This document shows positions 9,654 through 63,270 of a stretch of DNA of 64,000 nt, one piece after another. The DNA comes from Shigella phage ESh25. The DNA is taken from sequence record ON528735; one strand, written 5' to 3'. How positions within the stretch are numbered: position 1 is the first letter of the stretch; each line of letters opens with the position of its first letter. The notes under the pieces were generated by a model. That model was not told the origin of the DNA. It saw nothing but the letters and a program-made list of their open reading frames with translations, and made no database searches. A program made the translations under genes and the position numbers.

Positions 9654-9938
9654 ACGGAATGAAATAAAAGCAGCAACTGAAGCAACAGAGGTTTCTTCAA
9701 TATAAACCTCAATTTTTACCGGAGCTTCTGACTCAAATTTACCTGTTACTACACCTTGGAAAATACTTTCAGTCTGTTCTGGCTTTGAAAAATTTTCAGA
9801 AGGAAAAATTCCGAACTTTTTATCGGTTCCGAAAATTTTAATAAATTCATCATAAACTGCTTCATTGAAAGCGTTATCAGCAGGAATAACGCCTTCAACT
9901 ACAAGTTCTTGACCTAAAAAGCGTAAAGAAGATTTCAT
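9648..9938 (-). CDS. hypothetical protein (96 aa) downstream of the alt genes
   Basis: ORF with GAGGA Shine-Dalgarno; early promoter cassette directly upstream. Confidence 0.6.
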   Translation of the reverse strand: MKSSLRFLGQELVVEGVIPADNAFNEAVYDEFIKIFGTDKKFGIFPSENFSKPEQTESIFQGVVTGKFESEAPVKIEVYIEETSVASVAAFISFRK

Positions 9939-9969
9939 TTTGTGTTCCTCATGTTATGTCAGTAAGATT

Positions 9970-9999
9970 ACTATAACACAACACGAGGGACTTGTAAAC
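9970..9999 (-). promoter_or_regulatory. sigma70-type early promoter (-35 GTTTAC, -10 TATAGT); part of a duplicated 54-bp cassette
   Basis: Minus strand GTTTAC, 17-18 nt, TATAG(T); 53/54 identical to 25270-25323. Confidence 0.55.
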
Positions 10000-12056
10000 T
10001 ACATTTTGAACTTTTTAGACATTCCGTTGATGTTAACCAAAGAAGCTAAGATTTGAGAAACTTCGCTTTCCTCTTCTTTTGATTCTTCTACAAGGAATTG
10101 ATTAAATCCAGCCATTGGACGAAATTCACCAGTTTCCATTAGATGGTCGCCATCATATACTGATTCTTCTAATTGTTCAGAAGGAGGAACGATTGTACCT
10201 TCGATTAGATACTTATTATAAGCAGTTTCTTTCATAAAGTAAGTACTTACTTTATTAATCTTCAGTAAAATTCCACGTGGTAGAATAACTTCAGCTTCTG
10301 ATGGAAATCCTGACAAATGACCTGGAACGATAACTTTAACTCGTTCAGCTCCTTTAATTACCATACCCACGCTAGTTTCTGCATCTTCATTAGCATATGT
10401 AGAATGACTACCCATATGCATCAAATCTTCTGCATCAACGGAACCTTCTCCTTCACCAGAAAATACTGCGCCGGAATCATCTAGAGCCATATAGTTTTTA
10501 CCATGCTCACCGAAGATATTTGGTTTAAGCGATGTGGATACGAAGTTCTTGAAATAGAACATTTTGTTTTCAATGTTATGACGCAAAGTTTTAAATGTAA
10601 CTTCTTGTCCACGGTAAAGTGTAGTTCCTGGAGGAAGAACTGAACCTTTAGCGAATGCAGAATCAAGCGTCTCGATGTGCTTAATAGCACGTTCCATATA
10701 TTCTTCACGGGTAGAATCCGGTTTACCTAAAAGGAACGAGTTCATTTCAACATATGAATCTGCGCAATAATCTTCAATTACATCAGACTCAGCCTGAGTC
10801 AATCCTTTTGGAGTTACTTCAGTGCTTGCATATTCATACGCCTGAGCAGCGGATTCATCAATTAATTTATAAATTCCATTCATTACAAATTGAATAATAG
10901 CTGTCTTTTCATCTGGCGTAGCTTTAGAACCTTTAACTAAATCATTGATAATTTTCTTAATAACATCAAAACTATTAGAAATATTAATATCAGCAAGATC
11001 GCTTAAAATTTTATCAGTTTTATAATCAAAGAATTCTTTATTCTTTAAATATTCTTGAGAACCTTGATATGTTATATCGCTCTGCAACTTGATAGATGGA
11101 TCACGTAAACGTGCATGGGCTAATGCAATATGATTTCGGAAGCTTTCTAGTTCATAATCGTTAGATTTAAAACGAGAAGCACTTCTCATACCACCGATAG
11201 CTCCTTTGCTGAAGTTTGAACCAATCTGAATAACGCCAGAGTTCATTGGTCCTTCTGCTTTATATACCGGAACTTTAGATTCAAACTCTTGATATTTCTT
11301 AGCAGCGAAGCTATCACCCTGAAGTGAAGCATCAACAGTAGAATATTGAGCTTGTGCTGCTAATCGACGACTAATTTTAGTTTTCTGAATAACAGCTTGA
11401 TCCGTACGCTTATCATTTTCTAAAGCAATAGAAGCAGCAACTGCGACAGCTTTAGGAACAGCATTACCTGTTTTAACGTCTACATAAACATCACCGACTT
11501 TCGATTCAACTTTTGTGAATAACTCAGTTGAAATAGGAGGTACACCTGGAATGTCTTCTAAATTGGCATTTTTACGGTAAACCATAATATATGCATATTT
11601 CTTATCATAGTCCCAGATTTCCTTTAAAAGAACATATCGACCTGCTCCTTTAGTACGTACTAAACGGTCAGCAATAACTTGCATTTGACGAGCAGCGCCG
11701 TTTGTTTTACTTTTTAGTACGCGGAATAGGCATGCATCAATTTTATACTGTTTCATTGTTTGAAGAGCAGTATCAAAAACCGCATTAATGACACCAATTG
11801 GATTTCCACCCAAGTTTTTAAGCTTAACTAACGATAATTTCTCGTTGACGCCTATCATTACGATATGCATCATTTTGTCGCCTGGCTTAACGTTTTTATT
11901 CGTATCACCGCCAGAGGTGTATGTACAAAATCGAAATCCAGGAAGAACGCTTTCTTCACCGGCTTGAATAGCAAAAATTTGAGGTATTTTATGCTTAGGA
12001 TTTAAGTTAACAACCGGCGCCGAAGCGCCGTCAAATAATTCTGTAATAAGTTCCAT
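9999..12056 (-). CDS. Alt-family ADP-ribosyltransferase paralogue (685 aa)
   Basis: C-terminal R-S-E ART triad (YRGQ, FVSTS, EAEVILPRG); N-terminal ~230 aa similar to the adjacent alt; divergent middle. Confidence 0.8.
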   Translation of the reverse strand: MELITELFDGASAPVVNLNPKHKIPQIFAIQAGEESVLPGFRFCTYTSGGDTNKNVKPGDKMMHIVMIGVNEKLSLVKLKNLGGNPIGVINAVFDTALQTMKQYKIDACLFRVLKSKTNGAARQMQVIADRLVRTKGAGRYVLLKEIWDYDKKYAYIMVYRKNANLEDIPGVPPISTELFTKVESKVGDVYVDVKTGNAVPKAVAVAASIALENDKRTDQAVIQKTKISRRLAAQAQYSTVDASLQGDSFAAKKYQEFESKVPVYKAEGPMNSGVIQIGSNFSKGAIGGMRSASRFKSNDYELESFRNHIALAHARLRDPSIKLQSDITYQGSQEYLKNKEFFDYKTDKILSDLADINISNSFDVIKKIINDLVKGSKATPDEKTAIIQFVMNGIYKLIDESAAQAYEYASTEVTPKGLTQAESDVIEDYCADSYVEMNSFLLGKPDSTREEYMERAIKHIETLDSAFAKGSVLPPGTTLYRGQEVTFKTLRHNIENKMFYFKNFVSTSLKPNIFGEHGKNYMALDDSGAVFSGEGEGSVDAEDLMHMGSHSTYANEDAETSVGMVIKGAERVKVIVPGHLSGFPSEAEVILPRGILLKINKVSTYFMKETAYNKYLIEGTIVPPSEQLEESVYDGDHLMETGEFRPMAGFNQFLVEESKEEESEVSQILASLVNINGMSKKFKM

Positions 12057-12059
12057 GAT

Positions 12060-14156
12060 TTATCCTTGAACGAACTTGTAAGGCATGTTTGTAATATCTA
12101 TGCAAGACGCAATAATTCCAAGAGATGATTCTACTTTCTGTTTAACGTTTGATGAAACAAATGATGCAAAGTCAACTCTGTCTTCTATTTCAATATCACC
12201 TGTCATTGCAACTACTTCACCGGTTTCCATTAAATGGTCTCCGTCATAGATTACCGATTCGGTGAGCTCTTCCGTGGTCATAACTTCAGCTTGAATGAGT
12301 TTTGTATTATTAGATGTTGTTCCGTCATTATTAGAAGCATCAGTTATTTTATTAACTTTGACCATCAATCCACGCGGTAGAATAACTTCAGCTTCTGTTG
12401 CTATTCCGAGACTTCCTGGATATACAACATTAACTTTATGAGCTCCATCAATTGCCCATCCTATTTGAACTTTAACGTATTCAGGATTTTCTTTATACGC
12501 TCTTATTTCGTTTGGATTAATAGTTATTCCTTCTTCATTTTTATCAACTGTTAATTCATTGCGAGCTTCTGGTTCTAAAAGACCAATACCAGCATGTGTG
12601 ATTCCAAAACGTCCAAAAATGATAGGAGTTAAAGAAGTAGATACAAAATTTCTGAAGTAGAACACTTTATTTTTAACTAACGCTTCATATATAGGAGCAG
12701 TCATACTTTGAGCACGATAAACTGTAATGCCTTCTGGTATACGGTCACCATTTTCAAAAGCTGAATCTAAGTTATTTATAGCAGATTCAATTTCTTTTTC
12801 ACTCATTACATCATATCGTTCTGGATTGTAGCGGCCTAAAAGAAGATTATTGATGTCAGTATATCCTGAACCGCAATATTCTCTAATGCCACGCTTTTGC
12901 GATGGAGTATATTTAGAACCATCACGGGCAATAGTAATATCAATCATTGGACCTGCACCAATTCCGGAAAAGCTATAAATCATTCGTTTGAGGAATTTAG
13001 TTTTTGCTGCGTTCCAAGAATTTTTAGTTATTTCTTCCCAGACTTCATCTGGCTGCCCTTTACGAGTTTTATTATGTTTATCAAGCCAATTATCTTTATA
13101 TTCTTCAAAGAATTGATTAACAGCTGCTGCGTATTTCTCTAAACATTTTATTGAAGTAGTTGGTTCATTTTTAATCGCATTAAGAATTACATCTTTAATT
13201 TTTTCAGAAACTTCATTAACCTCACTTTTTGAAAAGAATTTATAGTCATAGTGAAGTTCATCTGCAGTTCCTTCGGCAATAATTTTTGCTGCCTTAGTTT
13301 TAGAAGCTAATGAATTAATTCCAAGCTTCATTTCTTCTGCTTCGGGAATTAAAGGAGCGGTAGCAGGTTTATTAAAATTAGCTGCTGTAGATTCATACTT
13401 CTGGAATAATTCACTTTCAAATCTAGAAGATTCCAATGATTGACTTTGCGCAATTGCTCTACGGGAAATTTTAACTTTAACGATTACAGCTTGGTCAGAA
13501 CGTTTATCATTTTCTTGTGCAATAGATGCTGCAATTGCCTCATTTTTAGTTACTTGAGCTCCAGTATCTTTATTGATATAAACATCACCAACCTTCGATT
13601 CAACTTTAGTAAAGAGCTCGGTACTAATTTCAGGAACTCCTGGAATGTCTTCTAATGATACGTTTTTGCGATGTATAAGAATATATGCATACTTTTTATC
13701 GTAATCCCAGAGTTCCTTAAGAAGGACGTATCTGCCACCTGAACGACTACGGATAAGTCTATCAGCAATAACTTGAATTTGTCGAGCTTGGCCAGCAGTT
13801 TTAGACTTAAGAATACGAAGCATACAAGCATCAATTTTATATTGACGCATTGTTTGCATTGCAACAGTAAAAACTGAATTGATATAATTAATTGGGCTTG
13901 GACCAAGACCTTTTAATTTAGCAATTGAACCTTTAGCAGTTAATGTAAAAGGAACAATATGCATCATTTTATCGCCCATCTTTAAATCACGATTAGTATC
14001 ACCTCCAGATGTATAGGTACATAAACGAAAGCCTGGTTGTTCAATTGCATCATCAACATGAACTGAAAAAATTTGCGGTATTTTCTTCTTTGGATTTAAG
14101 TTTGTAATCGGAAGAGTAGTATCTTCGTCAAATAATTCTGTAATAAGTTCCATCAT
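12060..14156 (-). CDS. alt: Alt ADP-ribosyltransferase (injected internal head protein that modifies host RNA polymerase)
   Basis: 698 aa; R-S-E motifs YRAQ, FVSTS, EAEVILPRG; late promoter upstream; T4 position between 54 and 30. Confidence 0.85.
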   Translation of the reverse strand: MMELITELFDEDTTLPITNLNPKKKIPQIFSVHVDDAIEQPGFRLCTYTSGGDTNRDLKMGDKMMHIVPFTLTAKGSIAKLKGLGPSPINYINSVFTVAMQTMRQYKIDACMLRILKSKTAGQARQIQVIADRLIRSRSGGRYVLLKELWDYDKKYAYILIHRKNVSLEDIPGVPEISTELFTKVESKVGDVYINKDTGAQVTKNEAIAASIAQENDKRSDQAVIVKVKISRRAIAQSQSLESSRFESELFQKYESTAANFNKPATAPLIPEAEEMKLGINSLASKTKAAKIIAEGTADELHYDYKFFSKSEVNEVSEKIKDVILNAIKNEPTTSIKCLEKYAAAVNQFFEEYKDNWLDKHNKTRKGQPDEVWEEITKNSWNAAKTKFLKRMIYSFSGIGAGPMIDITIARDGSKYTPSQKRGIREYCGSGYTDINNLLLGRYNPERYDVMSEKEIESAINNLDSAFENGDRIPEGITVYRAQSMTAPIYEALVKNKVFYFRNFVSTSLTPIIFGRFGITHAGIGLLEPEARNELTVDKNEEGITINPNEIRAYKENPEYVKVQIGWAIDGAHKVNVVYPGSLGIATEAEVILPRGLMVKVNKITDASNNDGTTSNNTKLIQAEVMTTEELTESVIYDGDHLMETGEVVAMTGDIEIEDRVDFASFVSSNVKQKVESSLGIIASCIDITNMPYKFVQG

Positions 14157-14176
14157 AGCCTCTCTAGTGTTTATTC

Positions 14177-18145: not shown

Positions 18146-18500
18146 ATTCGTTAAGAACTACATCAAAGATTGCTTCAAGATGCTCAGGTTTAGCTCTGTT
18201 ACTCAGAATATGACGAATCCAAGTTTTAACCAAAAGCTTGCGATTATCACCATTCCAGCAAGGATGAGTCCCTAAATCGCGTTGACGAAAATCATCATCC
18301 AGAGCGATTTTGAAGTTTGAACCTTCCATTGTGATTGAAACCGTGATGCCATTTTCAAATCGCATATAAACGTAGTTAGGAGTCATATACTGTTCAATTT
18401 CGCATACTGATCCATTTTGATGTTTCCAAAGGCAGATAGTATCAATAGAACCTGCAATACCATTAGAAACATATTTACGTTCAAAGTTGATGTAGTTCAT
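18135..18500 (-). CDS. hypothetical protein (121 aa)
   Basis: GGAGAA Shine-Dalgarno; early promoter upstream. Confidence 0.55.
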   Translation of the reverse strand: MNYINFERKYVSNGIAGSIDTICLWKHQNGSVCEIEQYMTPNYVYMRFENGITVSITMEGSNFKIALDDDFRQRDLGTHPCWNGDNRKLLVKTWIRHILSNRAKPEHLEAIFDVVLNEFDI

Positions 18501-18537
18501 TTTTATTCTCCGAGATGTTTAATTGCGGTACAGGTAT

Positions 18538-18566
18538 ATAATATCATATCCTGTACCAAAGTAAAC
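18538..18566 (-). promoter_or_regulatory. early promoter with embedded inverted repeat
   Basis: GTTTAC, 17 nt, TATTAT; inverted repeat GGTACAGG/CCTGTACC brackets the -10. Confidence 0.5.
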
Positions 18567-18568
18567 AA

Positions 18569-18901
18569 TTATTTTACTACTTTCCAGTGCTTCATGTCAA
18601 GTTTACCAACTTTTTTCATCTTCTCAATTAAGCGTTCGGCACGTTGGCGAGCTGTAACATAATACCATTCGCCTAATTCATTTTGTTCAATTTTTCCAAC
18701 GATTACTGTATTCAATTCATAAATCCAACCAGTAAAGAAATTATGAACTTGAATTGTAAAGGTGAAATCTGTTCCCATACCTTCTGTTGTTTCTACTTCA
18801 ATAATATCACCTTCAACTGCCATTAAGAACCACATAGTTTCATCATATTTACCATTGAAGCATTTAGTTTTAACTGTAGCGTTCAGATTAATCGTTTTCA
18901 T
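18569..18901 (-). CDS. hypothetical protein (110 aa)
   Basis: AAGGAG Shine-Dalgarno; own promoter. Confidence 0.55.
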   Translation of the reverse strand: MKTINLNATVKTKCFNGKYDETMWFLMAVEGDIIEVETTEGMGTDFTFTIQVHNFFTGWIYELNTVIVGKIEQNELGEWYYVTARQRAERLIEKMKKVGKLDMKHWKVVK

Positions 18902-18926
18902 TTTATTCTCCTTTGTTTGTGTAAGA

Positions 18927-18956
18927 TAATACTATCACAAAGGAACCATACTGTAA
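18927..18956 (-). promoter_or_regulatory. early promoter with inverted repeat that overlaps the downstream Shine-Dalgarno
   Basis: GTTTAC, 18 nt, TAGTAT; inverted repeat CCTTTGT/ACAAAGG, the 3' arm overlapping AAGGAG. Confidence 0.5.
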
Positions 18957-18977
18957 ACAACTTTATGCAATCTTTGG

Positions 18978-19006
18978 AAAATAAAAAAGGACTCCCGAAG
19001 GAGTCC
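18978..19006 (-). terminator. rho-independent terminator
   Basis: Perfect 7-bp stem GGACTCC with UUCG loop, followed on minus strand by TTTTTTATTTT. Confidence 0.75.
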
Positions 19007-19011
19007 TCAAC

Positions 19012-19188
19012 TTATGCTTTCTGCTTACCAAAACGAGAAGCATCATCTCGAAGAACCGCACGTGCTCGGCGCATGATCTTCTCAACAGTTTGATTGATAC
19101 GAGAGTTCGACCCACGCTTGTAGCCAGCGCGTTTAGAATCACCAACTTTCTTTTCAACTGCTTTCTTTGCTTTAGCTTGTTTTGCCAT
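19012..19188 (-). CDS. small lysine/arginine-rich basic protein (58 aa from MAKQ; track gives a 72-aa extension)
   Basis: Highly basic composition; start ambiguous between 19188 and 19230. Confidence 0.5.
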   Translation of the reverse strand: MAKQAKAKKAVEKKVGDSKRAGYKRGSNSRINQTVEKIMRRARAVLRDDASRFGKQKA

Positions 19189-19478
19189 TATAAATTCTCT
19201 TTTAAATGAAAATGCAGGACTTATTGGCATTGCCTGCGCAAGCCCTCAAGGGGAACATAGGTTTTTGGATATTTAACGACCAGGATAACCATAAACCTCG
19301 TCAACATACCACCAAGACTTACACAGATAACACTTTTCTGACGCATGATAGTAACATTCAAGAGGTACACCGTAAAACTGCCGGGGTCTTAAAACTATAA
19401 TGATTCGCAAATCATTAATCAGACAGTTCGACGGCTCCTCGATTTTAGCTCACACTAAGGCAGTGAATCTCCAATAAA

Positions 19479-21964: not shown

Positions 21965-21993
21965 TTTGTTTTCCTCATTTGTTTGGTAGAGCT

Positions 21994-22023
21994 ATAATAT
22001 CACAACTCTACCGTAAAGTAAAC
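21994..22023 (-). promoter_or_regulatory. early promoter with inverted repeat
   Basis: GTTTAC, 18 nt, TATTAT; inverted repeat GGTAGAG/CTCTACC brackets the -10. Confidence 0.5.
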
Positions 22024-24768: not shown

Positions 24769-25265
24769 AAAGTTTTAATAACCTCTATAATATCGTCTTG
24801 AGAAAGACCGTTAATTAAAATATGATGTTCAGCCGGAGATTTAGAAATTTTAAAGCACGCCGCAACATCTTCTGCCATATCCGATGCGCTACGATTTGGA
24901 TTACTAATTCCAAGACGATGCTTTCCTGTCAAAGGATTAACGATGATATAGCATTTGCAGCTATTGATATGAACATTAGGTTGAGTCTGATTAATAAACA
25001 CTTCACAATCATACTTAGCGAGTTGATTTTCTAAAAAGACTTTCATCTCCTCAACCGCATCAGGAAGCATATCACGGGCTTGCTCAAGATGACGATTTCG
25101 ATATTCTTTAATGGTCGTTTTCCGCTTGACTTGCTTAGCTAAATCTTTCTTAAGATCGGTGATATATCCAACTCGACGATTTCCTTTGAATACAGAAATC
25201 CCATCTGTAGTATCACCGTATGCTTCAACGACCATTTCAGTAGTAATAAGCTGCAAATCCATCAT
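24759..25265 (-). CDS. alc: Alc, terminator of host (cytosine-DNA) transcription
   Basis: 168 aa (T4 Alc about 167 aa); position between pseT and rnlA. Confidence 0.8.
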   Translation of the reverse strand: MMDLQLITTEMVVEAYGDTTDGISVFKGNRRVGYITDLKKDLAKQVKRKTTIKEYRNRHLEQARDMLPDAVEEMKVFLENQLAKYDCEVFINQTQPNVHINSCKCYIIVNPLTGKHRLGISNPNRSASDMAEDVAACFKISKSPAEHHILINGLSQDDIIEVIKTLCM

Positions 25266-25293
25266 AAAGTCCTCATGTTATGTCAGTAAGACT

Positions 25294-25323
25294 ACTATAA
25301 CACAACACGAGGGACTTGTAAAC
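25294..25323 (-). promoter_or_regulatory. early promoter for alc; second copy of the duplicated 54-bp cassette
   Basis: GTTTAC, 18 nt, TATAGT; 53/54 identical to 9946-9999. Confidence 0.55.
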
Positions 25324-33330: not shown

Positions 33331-33356
33331 TTTATTCTCCTCAAGTTGATAGGGTA

Positions 33357-33386
33357 ATAGTATCACACTACTACCCTGTTGTAAAC
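33357..33386 (-). promoter_or_regulatory. early promoter with inverted repeat
   Basis: GTTTAC, 18 nt, TACTAT; near-perfect 11-bp inverted repeat AGGGTAGTAGT/ACTATTACCCT spans spacer and -10. Confidence 0.5.
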
Positions 33387-54039: not shown

Positions 54040-54153
54040 TCACATAAATCCAAAATAAACGTTTAATACATCAATCATTAAAACGATTGGGAATATACTC
54101 AAAACTATTAGTATTATAACTACATTCCATATAGCTTTAATAATCTTTTTCAT
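54040..54153 (-). CDS. small hydrophobic peptide (37 aa)
   Basis: Track N-terminal extension reads through the promoter at 54182-54211; Shine-Dalgarno GGAGGAAC. Confidence 0.4.
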   Translation of the reverse strand: MKKIIKAIWNVVIILIVLSIFPIVLMIDVLNVYFGFM

Positions 54154-54181
54154 TTTCTGTTCCTCCGTAGTTGATAGGGTA

Positions 54182-54211
54182 ATAGTACCACGGAGGAACA
54201 GTCTTGTAAAC
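54182..54211 (-). promoter_or_regulatory. early promoter with inverted repeat that includes the downstream Shine-Dalgarno
   Basis: GTTTAC, 18 nt, TACTAT; inverted repeat TTCCTCCGT/ACGGAGGAA. Confidence 0.5.
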
Positions 54212-54693: not shown

Positions 54694-54723
54694 ATAGTAC
54701 CACGGTCCTTGTGGTATGTAAAC
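54694..54723 (-). promoter_or_regulatory. early promoter; cassette family member
   Basis: GTTTAC, 18 nt, TACTAT; shares GGTACTATACAACTATC with the 34358 and 51044 cassettes. Confidence 0.5.
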
Positions 54724-63196: not shown

Positions 63197-63240
63197 AGTT
63201 ATCTCTCACTTGTTAAAAAGATTTTATACTCCACGGGACC

Positions 63241-63270
63241 ATTATACTCTGGTCCCAAGAGTTTGTAAAC
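63241..63270 (-). promoter_or_regulatory. early promoter with -10 in the loop of an inverted repeat
   Basis: GTTTAC, 18 nt, TATAAT; inverted repeat GGGACCA/TGGTCCC flanks the -10. Confidence 0.55.

What the first reader, a model, noticed from the sequence alone, without database searches (positions are those of the whole stretch)
18908..18941. Inverted repeats inside promoters, some predicted to sequester the Shine-Dalgarno in read-through transcripts
Several early promoters carry inverted repeats that bracket the -10 (18531-18558, 21985-22012, 33350-33376, 63251-63264). In two cases the 3' arm overlaps the Shine-Dalgarno: CCTTTGT...ACAAAGGAG at 18908-18941 and TTCCTCCGT...ACGGAGGAA at 54160-54200. 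Transcripts starting at the local promoter would lack the 5' arm and be translatable, while read-through transcripts would be masked. T4 uses this logic at a few genes (e, soc, 49); here it appears repeatedly at early genes.
Basis: inference. Interest (0 to 1): 0.5.

Follow-up and report, generated by a model that had tools for sequence, protein, structure and literature searches.

The report
Early-promoter hairpins that hide ribosome sites
In this T4-like phage, several strong early promoters sit inside RNA hairpins, and in four of them the hairpin is predicted to hide the next gene's ribosome-binding site only in transcripts arriving from upstream, so the gene would be translated only from its own promoter; this is an untested early-gene version of a trick T4 is known to use at late genes.

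Summary
The window is a Tequatrovirus, 99% identical to phage wV7, with early genes on the minus strand. The inverted repeats are real and not chance. Nine of 15 early promoters (GTTTAC-N17/18-TAnnnT) carry a hairpin with the -10 in or next to the loop.

Four hairpins, not two, put the Shine-Dalgarno in the 3' arm and the 5' arm in the promoter spacer: 30.8 (the finding), a 37-aa ndd.4-like ORF (54157-54201), alc (25267-25317) and alt.-3 (9944-9991). Opening the ribosome site costs 9-19 kcal/mol more in read-through RNA than in promoter-proximal RNA. Swapped upstream sequences give 2.0 +/- 2.3.

The alc hairpin is conserved with compensatory changes across many T4-like lineages. G.U pairs far outnumber A.C mismatches, which points to the sense RNA. 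No hairpin has a U-tract.

The focal 30.8 hairpin is the weakest (9 bp, about 1-8% against the nulls). It is stable only within Tequatrovirus.

Stem-loops in T4-type early promoters are already published as PeSL cassettes. Transcript-specific masking is known for T4 late genes e, soc, 49 and I-TevI. This is a new variant of a known kind and has not been tested experimentally.

The parts
18908..18945 (-). Focal hairpin at the gene 30.8 promoter. The 5' arm UUCCUUUGU (18937-18945) lies in the promoter spacer. The 3' arm ACAAAGGAG (18908-18916) contains the SD AAGGAG. The 20-nt loop holds the -10.
   Evidence: Hairpin energy -9.1 kcal/mol. The 69-nt read-through segment folds at -15.4 (z -3.5). 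The added cost of opening the ribosome site is +8.9.
18929..18958 (-). Early promoter of 30.8: -35 GTTTAC at 18953-18958, TG-extended -10 TAGTAT at 18929-18934, inferred start near 18922.
   Evidence: Identical in T4.
18987..19008 (-). Intrinsic terminator (GAGGACUCC-UUCG-GGAGUCCUU plus a U-tract) after 30.9, about 30 nt upstream of the 30.8 promoter.
   Evidence: wV7 and ASO78A annotate a terminator here.
18569..18901 (-). Gene 30.8 (110 aa, Pfam Phage_30_8), whose SD is masked.
54157..54201 (-). Strongest SD-masking hairpin, 14-15 bp: CUGUUCCUCCGUGG / CUACGGAGGAACAG. The -10 TACTAT (54182-54187) is in the loop and the -35 is at 54206-54211. It precedes a 37-aa hydrophobic ORF (about 54040-54153, ndd.4-like).
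   Evidence: +18.8; -25.4, z -6.0. Conserved in JD18 and T4 with compensatory and wobble changes.
25267..25317 (-). SD-masking hairpin at the alc promoter. The 5' arm starts right after the -35 (25318-25323). The -10 TATAGT (25294-25299) is in the loop. The 3' arm covers the SD GAGGA (25270-25274). alc starts at 25265.
   Evidence: +15.0; -24.4, z -4.9. Covariation. Pfam ALC. Identical in T4.
9944..9991 (-). SD-masking hairpin at the alt.-3 promoter (-35 at 9994-9999, ATG at 9938). It is a 53/54-nt copy of the alc cassette.
   Evidence: +14.3; -23.0, z -5.3. No hairpin at the alt.-3 orthologue in JD18 or RB69.
18527..18557 (-). Hairpin centred on the -10 at the 30.7 promoter (GGUACAGG / CCUGUACC). 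It does not cover the SD.
   Evidence: -12.3; -3.2. The orthologous promoter has a hairpin in every lineage checked, with three unrelated sequences.
21985..22012 (-). Hairpin centred on the -10 at the cd.2 promoter (GGUAGAGUU / AGCUCUACC). It does not cover the SD.
   Evidence: -11.8; +0.2.
33351..33377 (-). Hairpin overlapping the -10 of the promoter at 33386. As sense RNA it is about 11-12 bp with a G.U pair. It does not cover the SD.
   Evidence: segment minimum free energy -15.2.
63235..63256 (-). Hairpin centred on the -10 of the promoter at 63270 (GGGACC / GGUCCC core, extendable to 12 bp). It does not cover the SD.
   Evidence: -16.9; +3.5.

Best explanation
These are promoter-embedded, transcript-specific translational masks in a T4-type phage. 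At four early genes the spacer between the -35 and -10 of the gene's own sigma-70-type early promoter is complementary to that gene's Shine-Dalgarno region. The genes are 30.8, a 37-aa ndd.4-like ORF, alc and alt.-3.

RNA that enters from upstream carries both arms. Such RNA comes from upstream early, middle or late promoters, or from terminator read-through. It folds into a 9-17 bp hairpin that buries the SD, so 30S subunits cannot bind. RNA started at the embedded promoter begins about 7 nt after the -10. It lacks the 5' arm and has an open leader.

The net effect is that translation of the gene is tied to firing of its own early promoter, the immediate-early window. It is insulated from read-through.

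What is shown: the hairpins exist, they are far beyond chance, they are thermodynamically strong, they act at the level of sense RNA, and at alc they are maintained by compensatory evolution. What is inferred: the transcription start positions, which follow sigma-70 spacing rules; the block to translation; and its biological purpose.

The other five promoter hairpins, which sit on the -10 and do not cover the SD, are ordinary PeSL-type stem-loops. Their role is not resolved here; attenuation, RNA 3'-end protection and recombination are candidates.
For: Geometry. In all four cases the 5' arm lies wholly upstream of the -10 and the 3' arm covers the SD.

Energetics.
- Read-through segments fold at -15.4, -25.4, -24.4 and -23.0 kcal/mol, with z-scores from -3.5 to -6.0. 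The promoter-proximal leaders fold at 0 to -2.2.
- The added cost of opening the ribosome site is +8.9, +18.8, +15.0 and +14.3. The other 11 promoters give -3.2 to +5.8. The swapped-upstream null has mean 2.0, SD 2.3 and maximum 9.2.

Evolution of the alc hairpin.
- It is present in 16 distinct sequences with Alc identity of 46-98%.
- 79% of cells are paired against 68% in shuffles (0/500) and 36-54% when the partner is slid. Nine of 15 pairs show changes on both sides.
- Cognate arms average -19.1 against -9.2 for non-cognate arms, and 8 of 11 rank first.
- Two further lineages mask the alc SD with a different layout, with the 5' arm between the -10 and +1.

Other genes.
- The 37-aa ORF hairpin is kept in JD18 and T4 through double changes and G.U wobbles.
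- CC31-like phages mask the 30.7 SD in the same way, with added opening cost of 15-19.
- In SH-2 the only change in the 30.8 arm turns a U.G pair into C-G.

RNA level and sense strand.
- Interior G.U pairs number 25 against 3 A.C mismatches.
- Sense RNA is more stable than antisense in 30 of 40 hairpins, p=0.002, and in 8 of 8 in the window.

Read-through is plausible. At alc, alt.-3 and the 37-aa ORF, no stem-plus-U-tract terminator is visible in the 3-16 nt between the upstream stop codon and the -35 by reading the sequence; these junctions were not scanned with the terminator tool. T4 middle promoters lie upstream: PnrdB, PI-TevIII, P31 and Pcd (PMC2988021 Table 1).

Precedent. T4 e, soc, 49 and I-TevI use the same logic with late promoters (PMC3014915).
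Against: - There is no experimental evidence here. Start sites, RNA structure in vivo and translation were not measured.
- The focal 30.8 hairpin is only 9 bp with a 20-nt loop (-9.1 kcal/mol). It is marginal in the swap test (0.082). A strong terminator already sits just upstream of it.
- Outside Tequatrovirus, only a weak 5-7 nt complement to the SD remains at 30.8, with added opening cost of 2-6.
- RB69 and one distant lineage lack the alc hairpin.
- alt.-3 has the hairpin only because it carries a copy of the alc cassette. Its orthologues in JD18 and RB69 lack it.
- Most promoter hairpins do not touch the SD. A hairpin function unrelated to translation must therefore exist, and it could also apply to the four SD-covering cases.
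- The sequences used for covariation are related by descent, so the shuffle statistics overstate independence.
Confidence: 0.6

Rival explanations
1. The hairpins are PeSL stem-loops only. They attenuate or terminate transcription coming from upstream and provide homology for cassette recombination. Overlap with the SD is incidental and translation is not the target.
For: - Arbiol et al. 2010 (PMC2839356) describe stem-loops between the -35 and -10, or overlapping the -10, in RB49/phi1 early promoters. One such stem-loop lowered lacZ expression as much as rrnB T1.
- Cassettes are copied and shuffled here. The alc and alt.-3 cassettes are 53/54 nt identical. The same cassette sits before different genes or alleles. 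JD18 has a chimeric cassette.
- Five of nine window hairpins do not touch the SD.
- Annotation pipelines call some of these hairpins terminators.
Against: - None of the 36 strong hairpins has more than 3 U in the 8 nt after the stem. The terminator scan does not flag the two promoter hairpins in the one region scanned, 18400-19300.
- At alc, SD inclusion is kept across lineages and across three different layouts, while the arm sequences turn over.
- The two ideas are not exclusive. An untranslated masked cistron could itself cause Rho-dependent polarity.
Confidence: 0.2
2. The hairpins are RNA processing or stability elements. They would be an RNase III-type cleavage site, or a barrier that protects the 3' end of the upstream message. 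The effect on the downstream SD would be secondary.
For: The structures are selected in sense RNA. They are intercistronic and lie close behind upstream stop codons. Hairpins at the 30.7 promoter persist with unrelated sequences even when the SD is not covered.
Against: There is no sequence or size signature of known RNase III sites; the stems are 9-17 bp. This idea does not explain why the 3' arm ends on the SD in every alc lineage that has the hairpin. There is no Rfam match.
Confidence: 0.08
3. The hairpins are a translational-coupling device. Ribosomes that finish the upstream ORF melt the hairpin, so in read-through RNA the downstream gene is translated only when the upstream gene is.
For: Upstream stop codons lie just before or overlap the -35 at alc, alt.-3 and the 37-aa ORF. 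Structure-gated coupling is a well-established mechanism in bacteria and RNA phages (established knowledge).
Against: The helix begins about 7 to 16 nt after the stop codon, at or beyond the reach of a terminating ribosome (about 7-9 nt past the stop, from general knowledge). The stems are long at 14-17 bp. At 30.8 a terminator and about 90 nt separate the upstream ORF from the hairpin.
Confidence: 0.06
4. The repeats are chance complementarity, or a DNA-level palindrome such as a cruciform, a protein operator or a by-product of recombination, with no RNA function.
For: The focal 30.8 repeat is short and only marginally beyond the non-cognate null (0.082). AT-rich promoter regions are low in complexity.
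Against: - Seven promoters have p<=0.02 against shuffles, and four have 0/208 in the swap test.
- There is compensatory evolution.
- G.U pairs far outnumber A.C mismatches, and sense RNA is more stable than antisense. A DNA palindrome would be symmetric.
- The arms share no sequence that a common protein could bind.
Confidence: 0.05

Closest known systems
T4 RBS-sequestering hairpins with an internal promoter (genes e, soc, 49, I-TevI; also I-TevII/III, Aeh1 mobE, segB)
   Same: The SD and/or AUG is buried in a helix in long transcripts. A promoter lies inside the hairpin region, so its transcripts lack the 5' arm and are translated (PMC3014915). The geometry and energetics here are the same.
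   Different: The known cases use late promoters (TATAAATA), or a middle promoter for I-TevIII. They delay expression until late. Here the embedded promoter is a sigma-70-type early promoter and the 5' arm occupies the -35/-10 spacer. The predicted outcome is the mirror image: expression confined to the gene's own immediate-early transcripts. No experiment exists for these cases.
PeSL cassettes (promoter-early stem-loops) of T4-like phages (Arbiol 2010; Comeau 2014)
   Same: Both are compact cassettes made of an AT-rich upstream region, a strong early promoter, a stem-loop, the SD and the ATG. They recur in hyperplastic regions and are associated with gene shuffling. In RB49/phi1 the stem-loops lie between the -35 and -10 or overlap the -10. 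The window shows cassette copies and cassette/gene mosaics. The ndd.4/.5 region is one of their PST/T4 examples.
   Different: The PeSL papers interpret the stem-loop as a terminator/attenuator and a recombination site. They do not mention SD masking: a search of the 2010 paper found no use of 'translation'. For the PST/T4 pair they place the stem-loops just upstream of the promoter, not around the -10. The hairpins here lack U-tracts.
Intrinsic (Rho-independent) terminators
   Same: Both are a stable RNA hairpin in an intergenic region.
   Different: There is no U-tract after any of the 36 hairpins. The real terminator next to the focal element, at 18987-19008, is a separate structure.

Membership tests
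T4-type transcript-specific RBS-sequestering hairpin (e/soc/49/I-TevI class) | The SD and/or start codon is base-paired in the longer, read-through transcript. | tested here: met
   In all four cases the minimum-free-energy and centroid structures pair the SD. The added cost of opening the ribosome site is 8.9-18.8 kcal/mol against a null of 2.0 +/- 2.3.
T4-type transcript-specific RBS-sequestering hairpin (e/soc/49/I-TevI class) | A promoter is positioned so that its transcripts lack the 5' arm. | tested here: met
   The -10 lies in the loop and the 5' arm lies in the -35/-10 spacer. The start site is inferred from sigma-70 spacing and was not mapped.
T4-type transcript-specific RBS-sequestering hairpin (e/soc/49/I-TevI class) | The internal promoter is a late (TATAAATA) or middle promoter, which delays expression. 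| tested here: not met
   The promoters are GTTTAC-N17/18-TAnnnT early promoters. This is why the element is filed as a variant and not a member.
T4-type transcript-specific RBS-sequestering hairpin (e/soc/49/I-TevI class) | Differential translation of the two transcript classes has been demonstrated. | not testable with these tools
   This needs reporter fusions, toeprinting or Ribo-seq.
PeSL cassette | A strong sigma-70-like early promoter with an AT-rich upstream region, followed by the SD and ATG. | tested here: met
PeSL cassette | A stable stem-loop within or next to the promoter. | tested here: met
   Nine of 15 window promoters have one. Across lineages, 36 of 75 promoters do.
PeSL cassette | The cassette is repeated and is associated with gene replacement or indels. 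| tested here: met
   The alc and alt.-3 cassettes are 53/54 nt identical. The same cassette sits before different ORFs or alleles. JD18 has a chimeric cassette.
PeSL cassette | The stem-loop acts as a transcription terminator or attenuator. | tested here: inconclusive
   There is no U-tract, and the terminator scan of the one region scanned (18400-19300) does not flag the promoter hairpins there. Attenuation independent of a U-tract, or dependent on Rho, cannot be assessed computationally.
Intrinsic terminator | A GC-rich stem followed by a U-tract. | tested here: not met
   There are at most 3 U in the 8 nt after any stem.
Any curated Rfam RNA family | A match at or above the gathering score. 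| tested here: not met
   There are no matches in the whole window.

The most novel reading that the evidence does not exclude
Promoter-embedded SD masks may be a general 'own-promoter-only' gate in Tevenvirinae. They would make early expression cassettes independent of context, which would help modular gene shuffling. They would confine proteins such as Alc to the immediate-early window. By leaving the masked cistron untranslated in read-through RNA, they could also create the long-sought Rho-dependent or nuclease-sensitive barriers between immediate-early and delayed-early genes. That would reconcile the attenuator activity reported for PeSLs with the absence of U-tracts.
Probability: 0.25. 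Interest if true: 0.7.

Novelty: new variant of a known kind. Interest (0 to 1): 0.5.

Why it matters
If true, T4-like phages use one design in two mirror-image ways. The design is a promoter inside a hairpin that hides the ribosome-binding site. With late promoters it delays genes. With early promoters it restricts genes to their own immediate-early transcripts.

This would add a third mechanism for the abrupt decline in synthesis of many early proteins, beside early-promoter shut-off and RegB cleavage (PMC3014915). It would also give a concrete, mutable sequence basis for the still unexplained barrier between immediate-early and delayed-early expression (PMC2988021, section 19).

It would assign a function to part of the PeSL stem-loops. 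It would explain why these cassettes can be moved in front of unrelated genes.

The alc hairpin is identical in T4 itself, so the idea can be tested directly in the model phage. The element is also a very compact natural insulator, about 55 nt holding a promoter, a mask and a ribosome-binding site, which may interest synthetic biology.

Tried and rejected
- Intrinsic-terminator reading: rejected. No hairpin has a U-tract.
- DNA-level palindrome or antisense RNA: rejected because G.U pairs outnumber A.C mismatches and sense RNA is more stable than antisense.
- Known RNA family: none found (Rfam).
- Loose DNA pattern scan of viral contigs for the 54211 cassette: it returned mostly chance matches and only about 9 T4-like hits. 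This was a poor use of a scan.
- Metagenome scan for gp30.8: only 13 loci. The Tequatrovirus-type cassette was invariant in its arms, so there is no covariation information for the focal hairpin.
- Covariance-model realignment of alc promoters: it did not correct the register shift in the Tequatrovirus and JD18 rows, so the pair counts are conservative. An alignment-free arm-swap test was used instead.
- Literature searches for an earlier description of SD masking by early-promoter hairpins, or at alc: nothing found. The 2003 T4 genome review (PMC150520) and the older early-promoter compilation papers are not in the held library, so prior mention there cannot be excluded.
- Translational coupling by the terminating ribosome: considered and ranked low because of the spacing between stop codon and helix.

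Full report
**Identity and context**

The window is a Tequatrovirus. A 2-kb piece is 99.1% identical to phage wV7, and about 500 T4-like genomes match it at 95% or more. It is colinear with T4 from uvsW through the rII region.

The early genes around the finding are on the minus strand, so every element below is read on that strand. The focal coordinates lie between genes 30.9 and 30.8. Gene identities were confirmed with Pfam: Phage_30_8, ALC, DUF5498 for alt.-3, and Phage_T4_Gp30_7.

**The observation**

On the minus strand the focal region reads GTTTAC-AGUAUGG**UUCCUUUGU**GA-UAGUAU-UAUCUUACACAA**ACAAAGGAG**AAUAAA-AUG.

- This is a T4-type early promoter, with the -35 at 18953-18958 and a TG-extended -10 at 18929-18934.
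- The 5' arm sits in the spacer. The 3' arm contains the SD AAGGAG.
- An intrinsic terminator lies just upstream at 18987-19008.
- T4 has the same 30.8, 30.7 and cd.2 promoter repeats.

**Is it more than chance?**

I found 15 early promoters with a perfect GTTTAC, a 17-18 nt gap and TAnnnT, each followed by an SD and an ORF. For each one I took the best duplex between the spacer and the region from the -10 to the AUG, and scored it as a hairpin.

| Promoter (-35 coordinate) | Gene | Hairpin energy (kcal/mol) |
|---|---|---|
| 54211 | 37-aa ORF | -23.6 |
| 25323 | alc | -19.1 |
| 9999 | alt.-3 | -18.2 |
| 63270 | not assigned | -16.9 |
| 18566 | 30.7 | -12.3 |
| 22023 | cd.2 | -11.8 |
| 18958 | 30.8 | -9.1 |

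- All seven beat 500 shuffles at p<=0.02.
- Against 208 non-cognate spacer/leader pairs, the fractions at least as stable were 0 for four of them, 0.005 for 18566, 0.014 for 22023 and 0.082 for 18958.
- The 33386 hairpin overlaps the -10 and was underestimated by this geometry. The segment folds at -15.2.
- So 9 of 15 promoters carry a strong hairpin.

**SD masking**

Four hairpins, not two, have the SD in the 3' arm: 30.8, the 37-aa ndd.4-like ORF, alc and alt.-3.

| Gene | Read-through fold, kcal/mol (z-score) | Added cost of opening positions -15 to +3 in read-through RNA |
|---|---|---|
| 30.8 | -15.4 (-3.5) | +8.9 |
| 37-aa ORF | -25.4 (-6.0) | +18.8 |
| alc | -24.4 (-4.9) | +15.0 |
| alt.-3 | -23.0 (-5.3) | +14.3 |

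- None of 200 shuffles folded as well as any of the four read-through segments. The promoter-proximal leaders fold at 0 to -2.2.
- The other 11 promoters give -3.2 to +5.8 for the added opening cost.
- With non-cognate upstream sequence, the added cost has mean 2.0, SD 2.3, 99th percentile 8.6 and maximum 9.2.
The result is overwhelming for three genes and about 1% for 30.8.

**Evolutionary evidence**

*alc.* IMG/VR loci encoding Alc at 34-98% identity were collected.

- In 16 distinct sequences the lowest-energy fold from the -35 to the AUG is the same design. The 5' arm starts right after GTTTAC(A) and the 3' arm ends on the SD. Arm sequences differ between lineages, for example UCUCCAUUUGGUU/AACCAAAUGGAGA, AACCUCUCAUUUU/AAAAUGAGAGGUU and AUCCUCGUCAG/CUGAUGAGGAU.
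- On a plain MAFFT alignment, 79% of cells pair, against 68% after shuffling (0/500) and 36-54% when the partner is slid. Nine of 15 pairs have changes on both sides. The covariation score is 0.354 against 0.18 (0/500). A covariance-model alignment gives the same picture.
- An alignment-free swap test gives -19.1 kcal/mol for cognate arms and -9.2 for non-cognate arms. Eight of 11 cognate pairs rank first.
- Two further lineages hide the alc SD with a different layout, with the 5' arm between the -10 and +1. RB69 and one distant lineage lack the hairpin.

*The 37-aa ORF.* The hairpin is kept in Klebsiella phage JD18, although the peptides are only 27% identical. Variants, including T4, differ by C-to-U changes that give G.U wobbles.

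*30.7.* In CC31-like phages the 30.7 promoter carries an SD-masking hairpin with added opening cost of 15-19. Other genera have an unrelated hairpin centred on the -10 at the same promoter.

*30.8.* The arms are invariant in Tequatrovirus. The one exception is a U.G to C-G change in SH-2. JS98, RB69, CC31-like and two other lineages keep only a 5-7 nt complement to the SD right after the -35, with modest predicted effect (added cost 0.7-5.6, mostly 2-6). JD18 has none.

**RNA or DNA?**

I surveyed 75 unique early promoters from 15 genome regions.

- 36 have hairpins of -9 kcal/mol or stronger, and 17 of those mask the SD. Many of the 17 are alc orthologues, so they are not independent.
- Interior G.U pairs number 25 against 3 A.C mismatches.
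- With symmetric ascertainment, the sense strand is more stable in 30 of 40 hairpins, p=0.002. It is more stable in 8 of 8 in the window.
- This points to selection on the sense transcript, not on a DNA palindrome.
- None of the 36 has more than 3 U in the 8 nt after the stem, so they are not intrinsic terminators. No Rfam family matches.

**Mechanism**

The best-supported reading is transcript-specific masking. Read-through RNA contains both arms and buries the SD. RNA from the embedded promoter lacks the 5' arm and is open.

Read-through is plausible.

- At alc, alt.-3 and the 37-aa ORF, the upstream stop codon lies 3-16 nt before the 5' arm. Reading those junctions shows no stem followed by a U-tract between them, though they were not scanned with the terminator tool.
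- T4 middle promoters (PnrdB, PI-TevIII, P31, Pcd) lie upstream of alc and 30.8.

The predicted result is expression tied to the gene's own early promoter. An inferred extension follows from this. An untranslated cistron in read-through RNA would be open to Rho or to nucleases. That links to the unresolved barrier between immediate-early and delayed-early genes.

The five hairpins that do not cover the SD are not explained by masking.

**Comparison with what is known**

- The logic matches T4 e, soc, 49 and I-TevI. Those cases use late promoters (a middle promoter for I-TevIII), so one defining feature of that class is not met.
- Stem-loops within early promoters of T4-like phages are published as PeSL cassettes. 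In that work they are interpreted as terminators or attenuators and as recombination sites.
- The window shows PeSL-type behaviour. The alc and alt.-3 cassettes are 53/54 nt identical with unrelated flanks. The same cassette sits before different genes or alleles.
- The PeSL papers do not propose SD masking. Searches of the held literature found no earlier statement of it for early promoters. Key older T4 reviews are not held.

**Verdict**

It remains untested experimentally. I rate it a new variant of a known kind, of moderate interest.

Noticed in passing
window 9946-9999 and 25270-25323 (minus strand): The alt.-3 and alc promoter cassettes are 53/54 nt identical from the -35 GTTTAC to the SD, with unrelated flanks. 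This looks like a copied regulatory cassette. alt.-3 orthologues in JD18 and RB69 lack the hairpin.
   Followed up: partly
L128/L145 (IMG/VR) versus window 54153-54211; L200/L201 versus window 18901-19010: The same promoter-hairpin-SD cassette precedes a different ORF (MNAKDIF...) in two IMG/VR contigs. The T4-type 30.8 cassette precedes an RB69-like 30.8 allele in phages fFiEco06 and SH-2. The mosaic junction is at or near the ATG.
   Followed up: partly
L015 (Klebsiella phage JD18), promoters at 10512 and 9506: The promoter at 10512 carries the 3' arm sequence of the neighbouring 9506 hairpin (AGACCUGUACCACCCAAAC) but not its 5' partner. It appears to be a chimeric cassette formed by recombination within the -10 region.
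   Followed up: no
window 18527-18557, and orthologous 30.7 promoters in L179-L194, L041 and L015: The 30.7 promoter has a strong hairpin in every lineage checked, but with three unrelated stem sequences. In CC31-like phages the hairpin covers the SD instead. The structure is conserved while the sequence turns over completely.
   Followed up: partly
L202 (T4) 2265-2330, equivalent to window 54153-54211: T4's annotated ndd.4 start codon lies inside the 3' arm of the hairpin (ACGG changed to ATGG). Both T4-specific substitutions in this hairpin create G.U wobbles.
   Followed up: no
window minus-strand promoters with -35 at 54723, 54211, 51073, 50727, 34387 and 33386: Many early promoters share the -10 variant TACTAT and a conserved initial transcribed motif (..CTATCAA..). 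This suggests common descent or gene conversion among the cassettes.
   Followed up: no
window about 9950-14160 (minus strand): The closest relative, wV7, annotates two tandem Alt-like ADP-ribosyltransferase genes here. Promoter-like matches at 10132 and 12223 on the plus strand share similar sequence, consistent with tandem paralogues.
   Followed up: no
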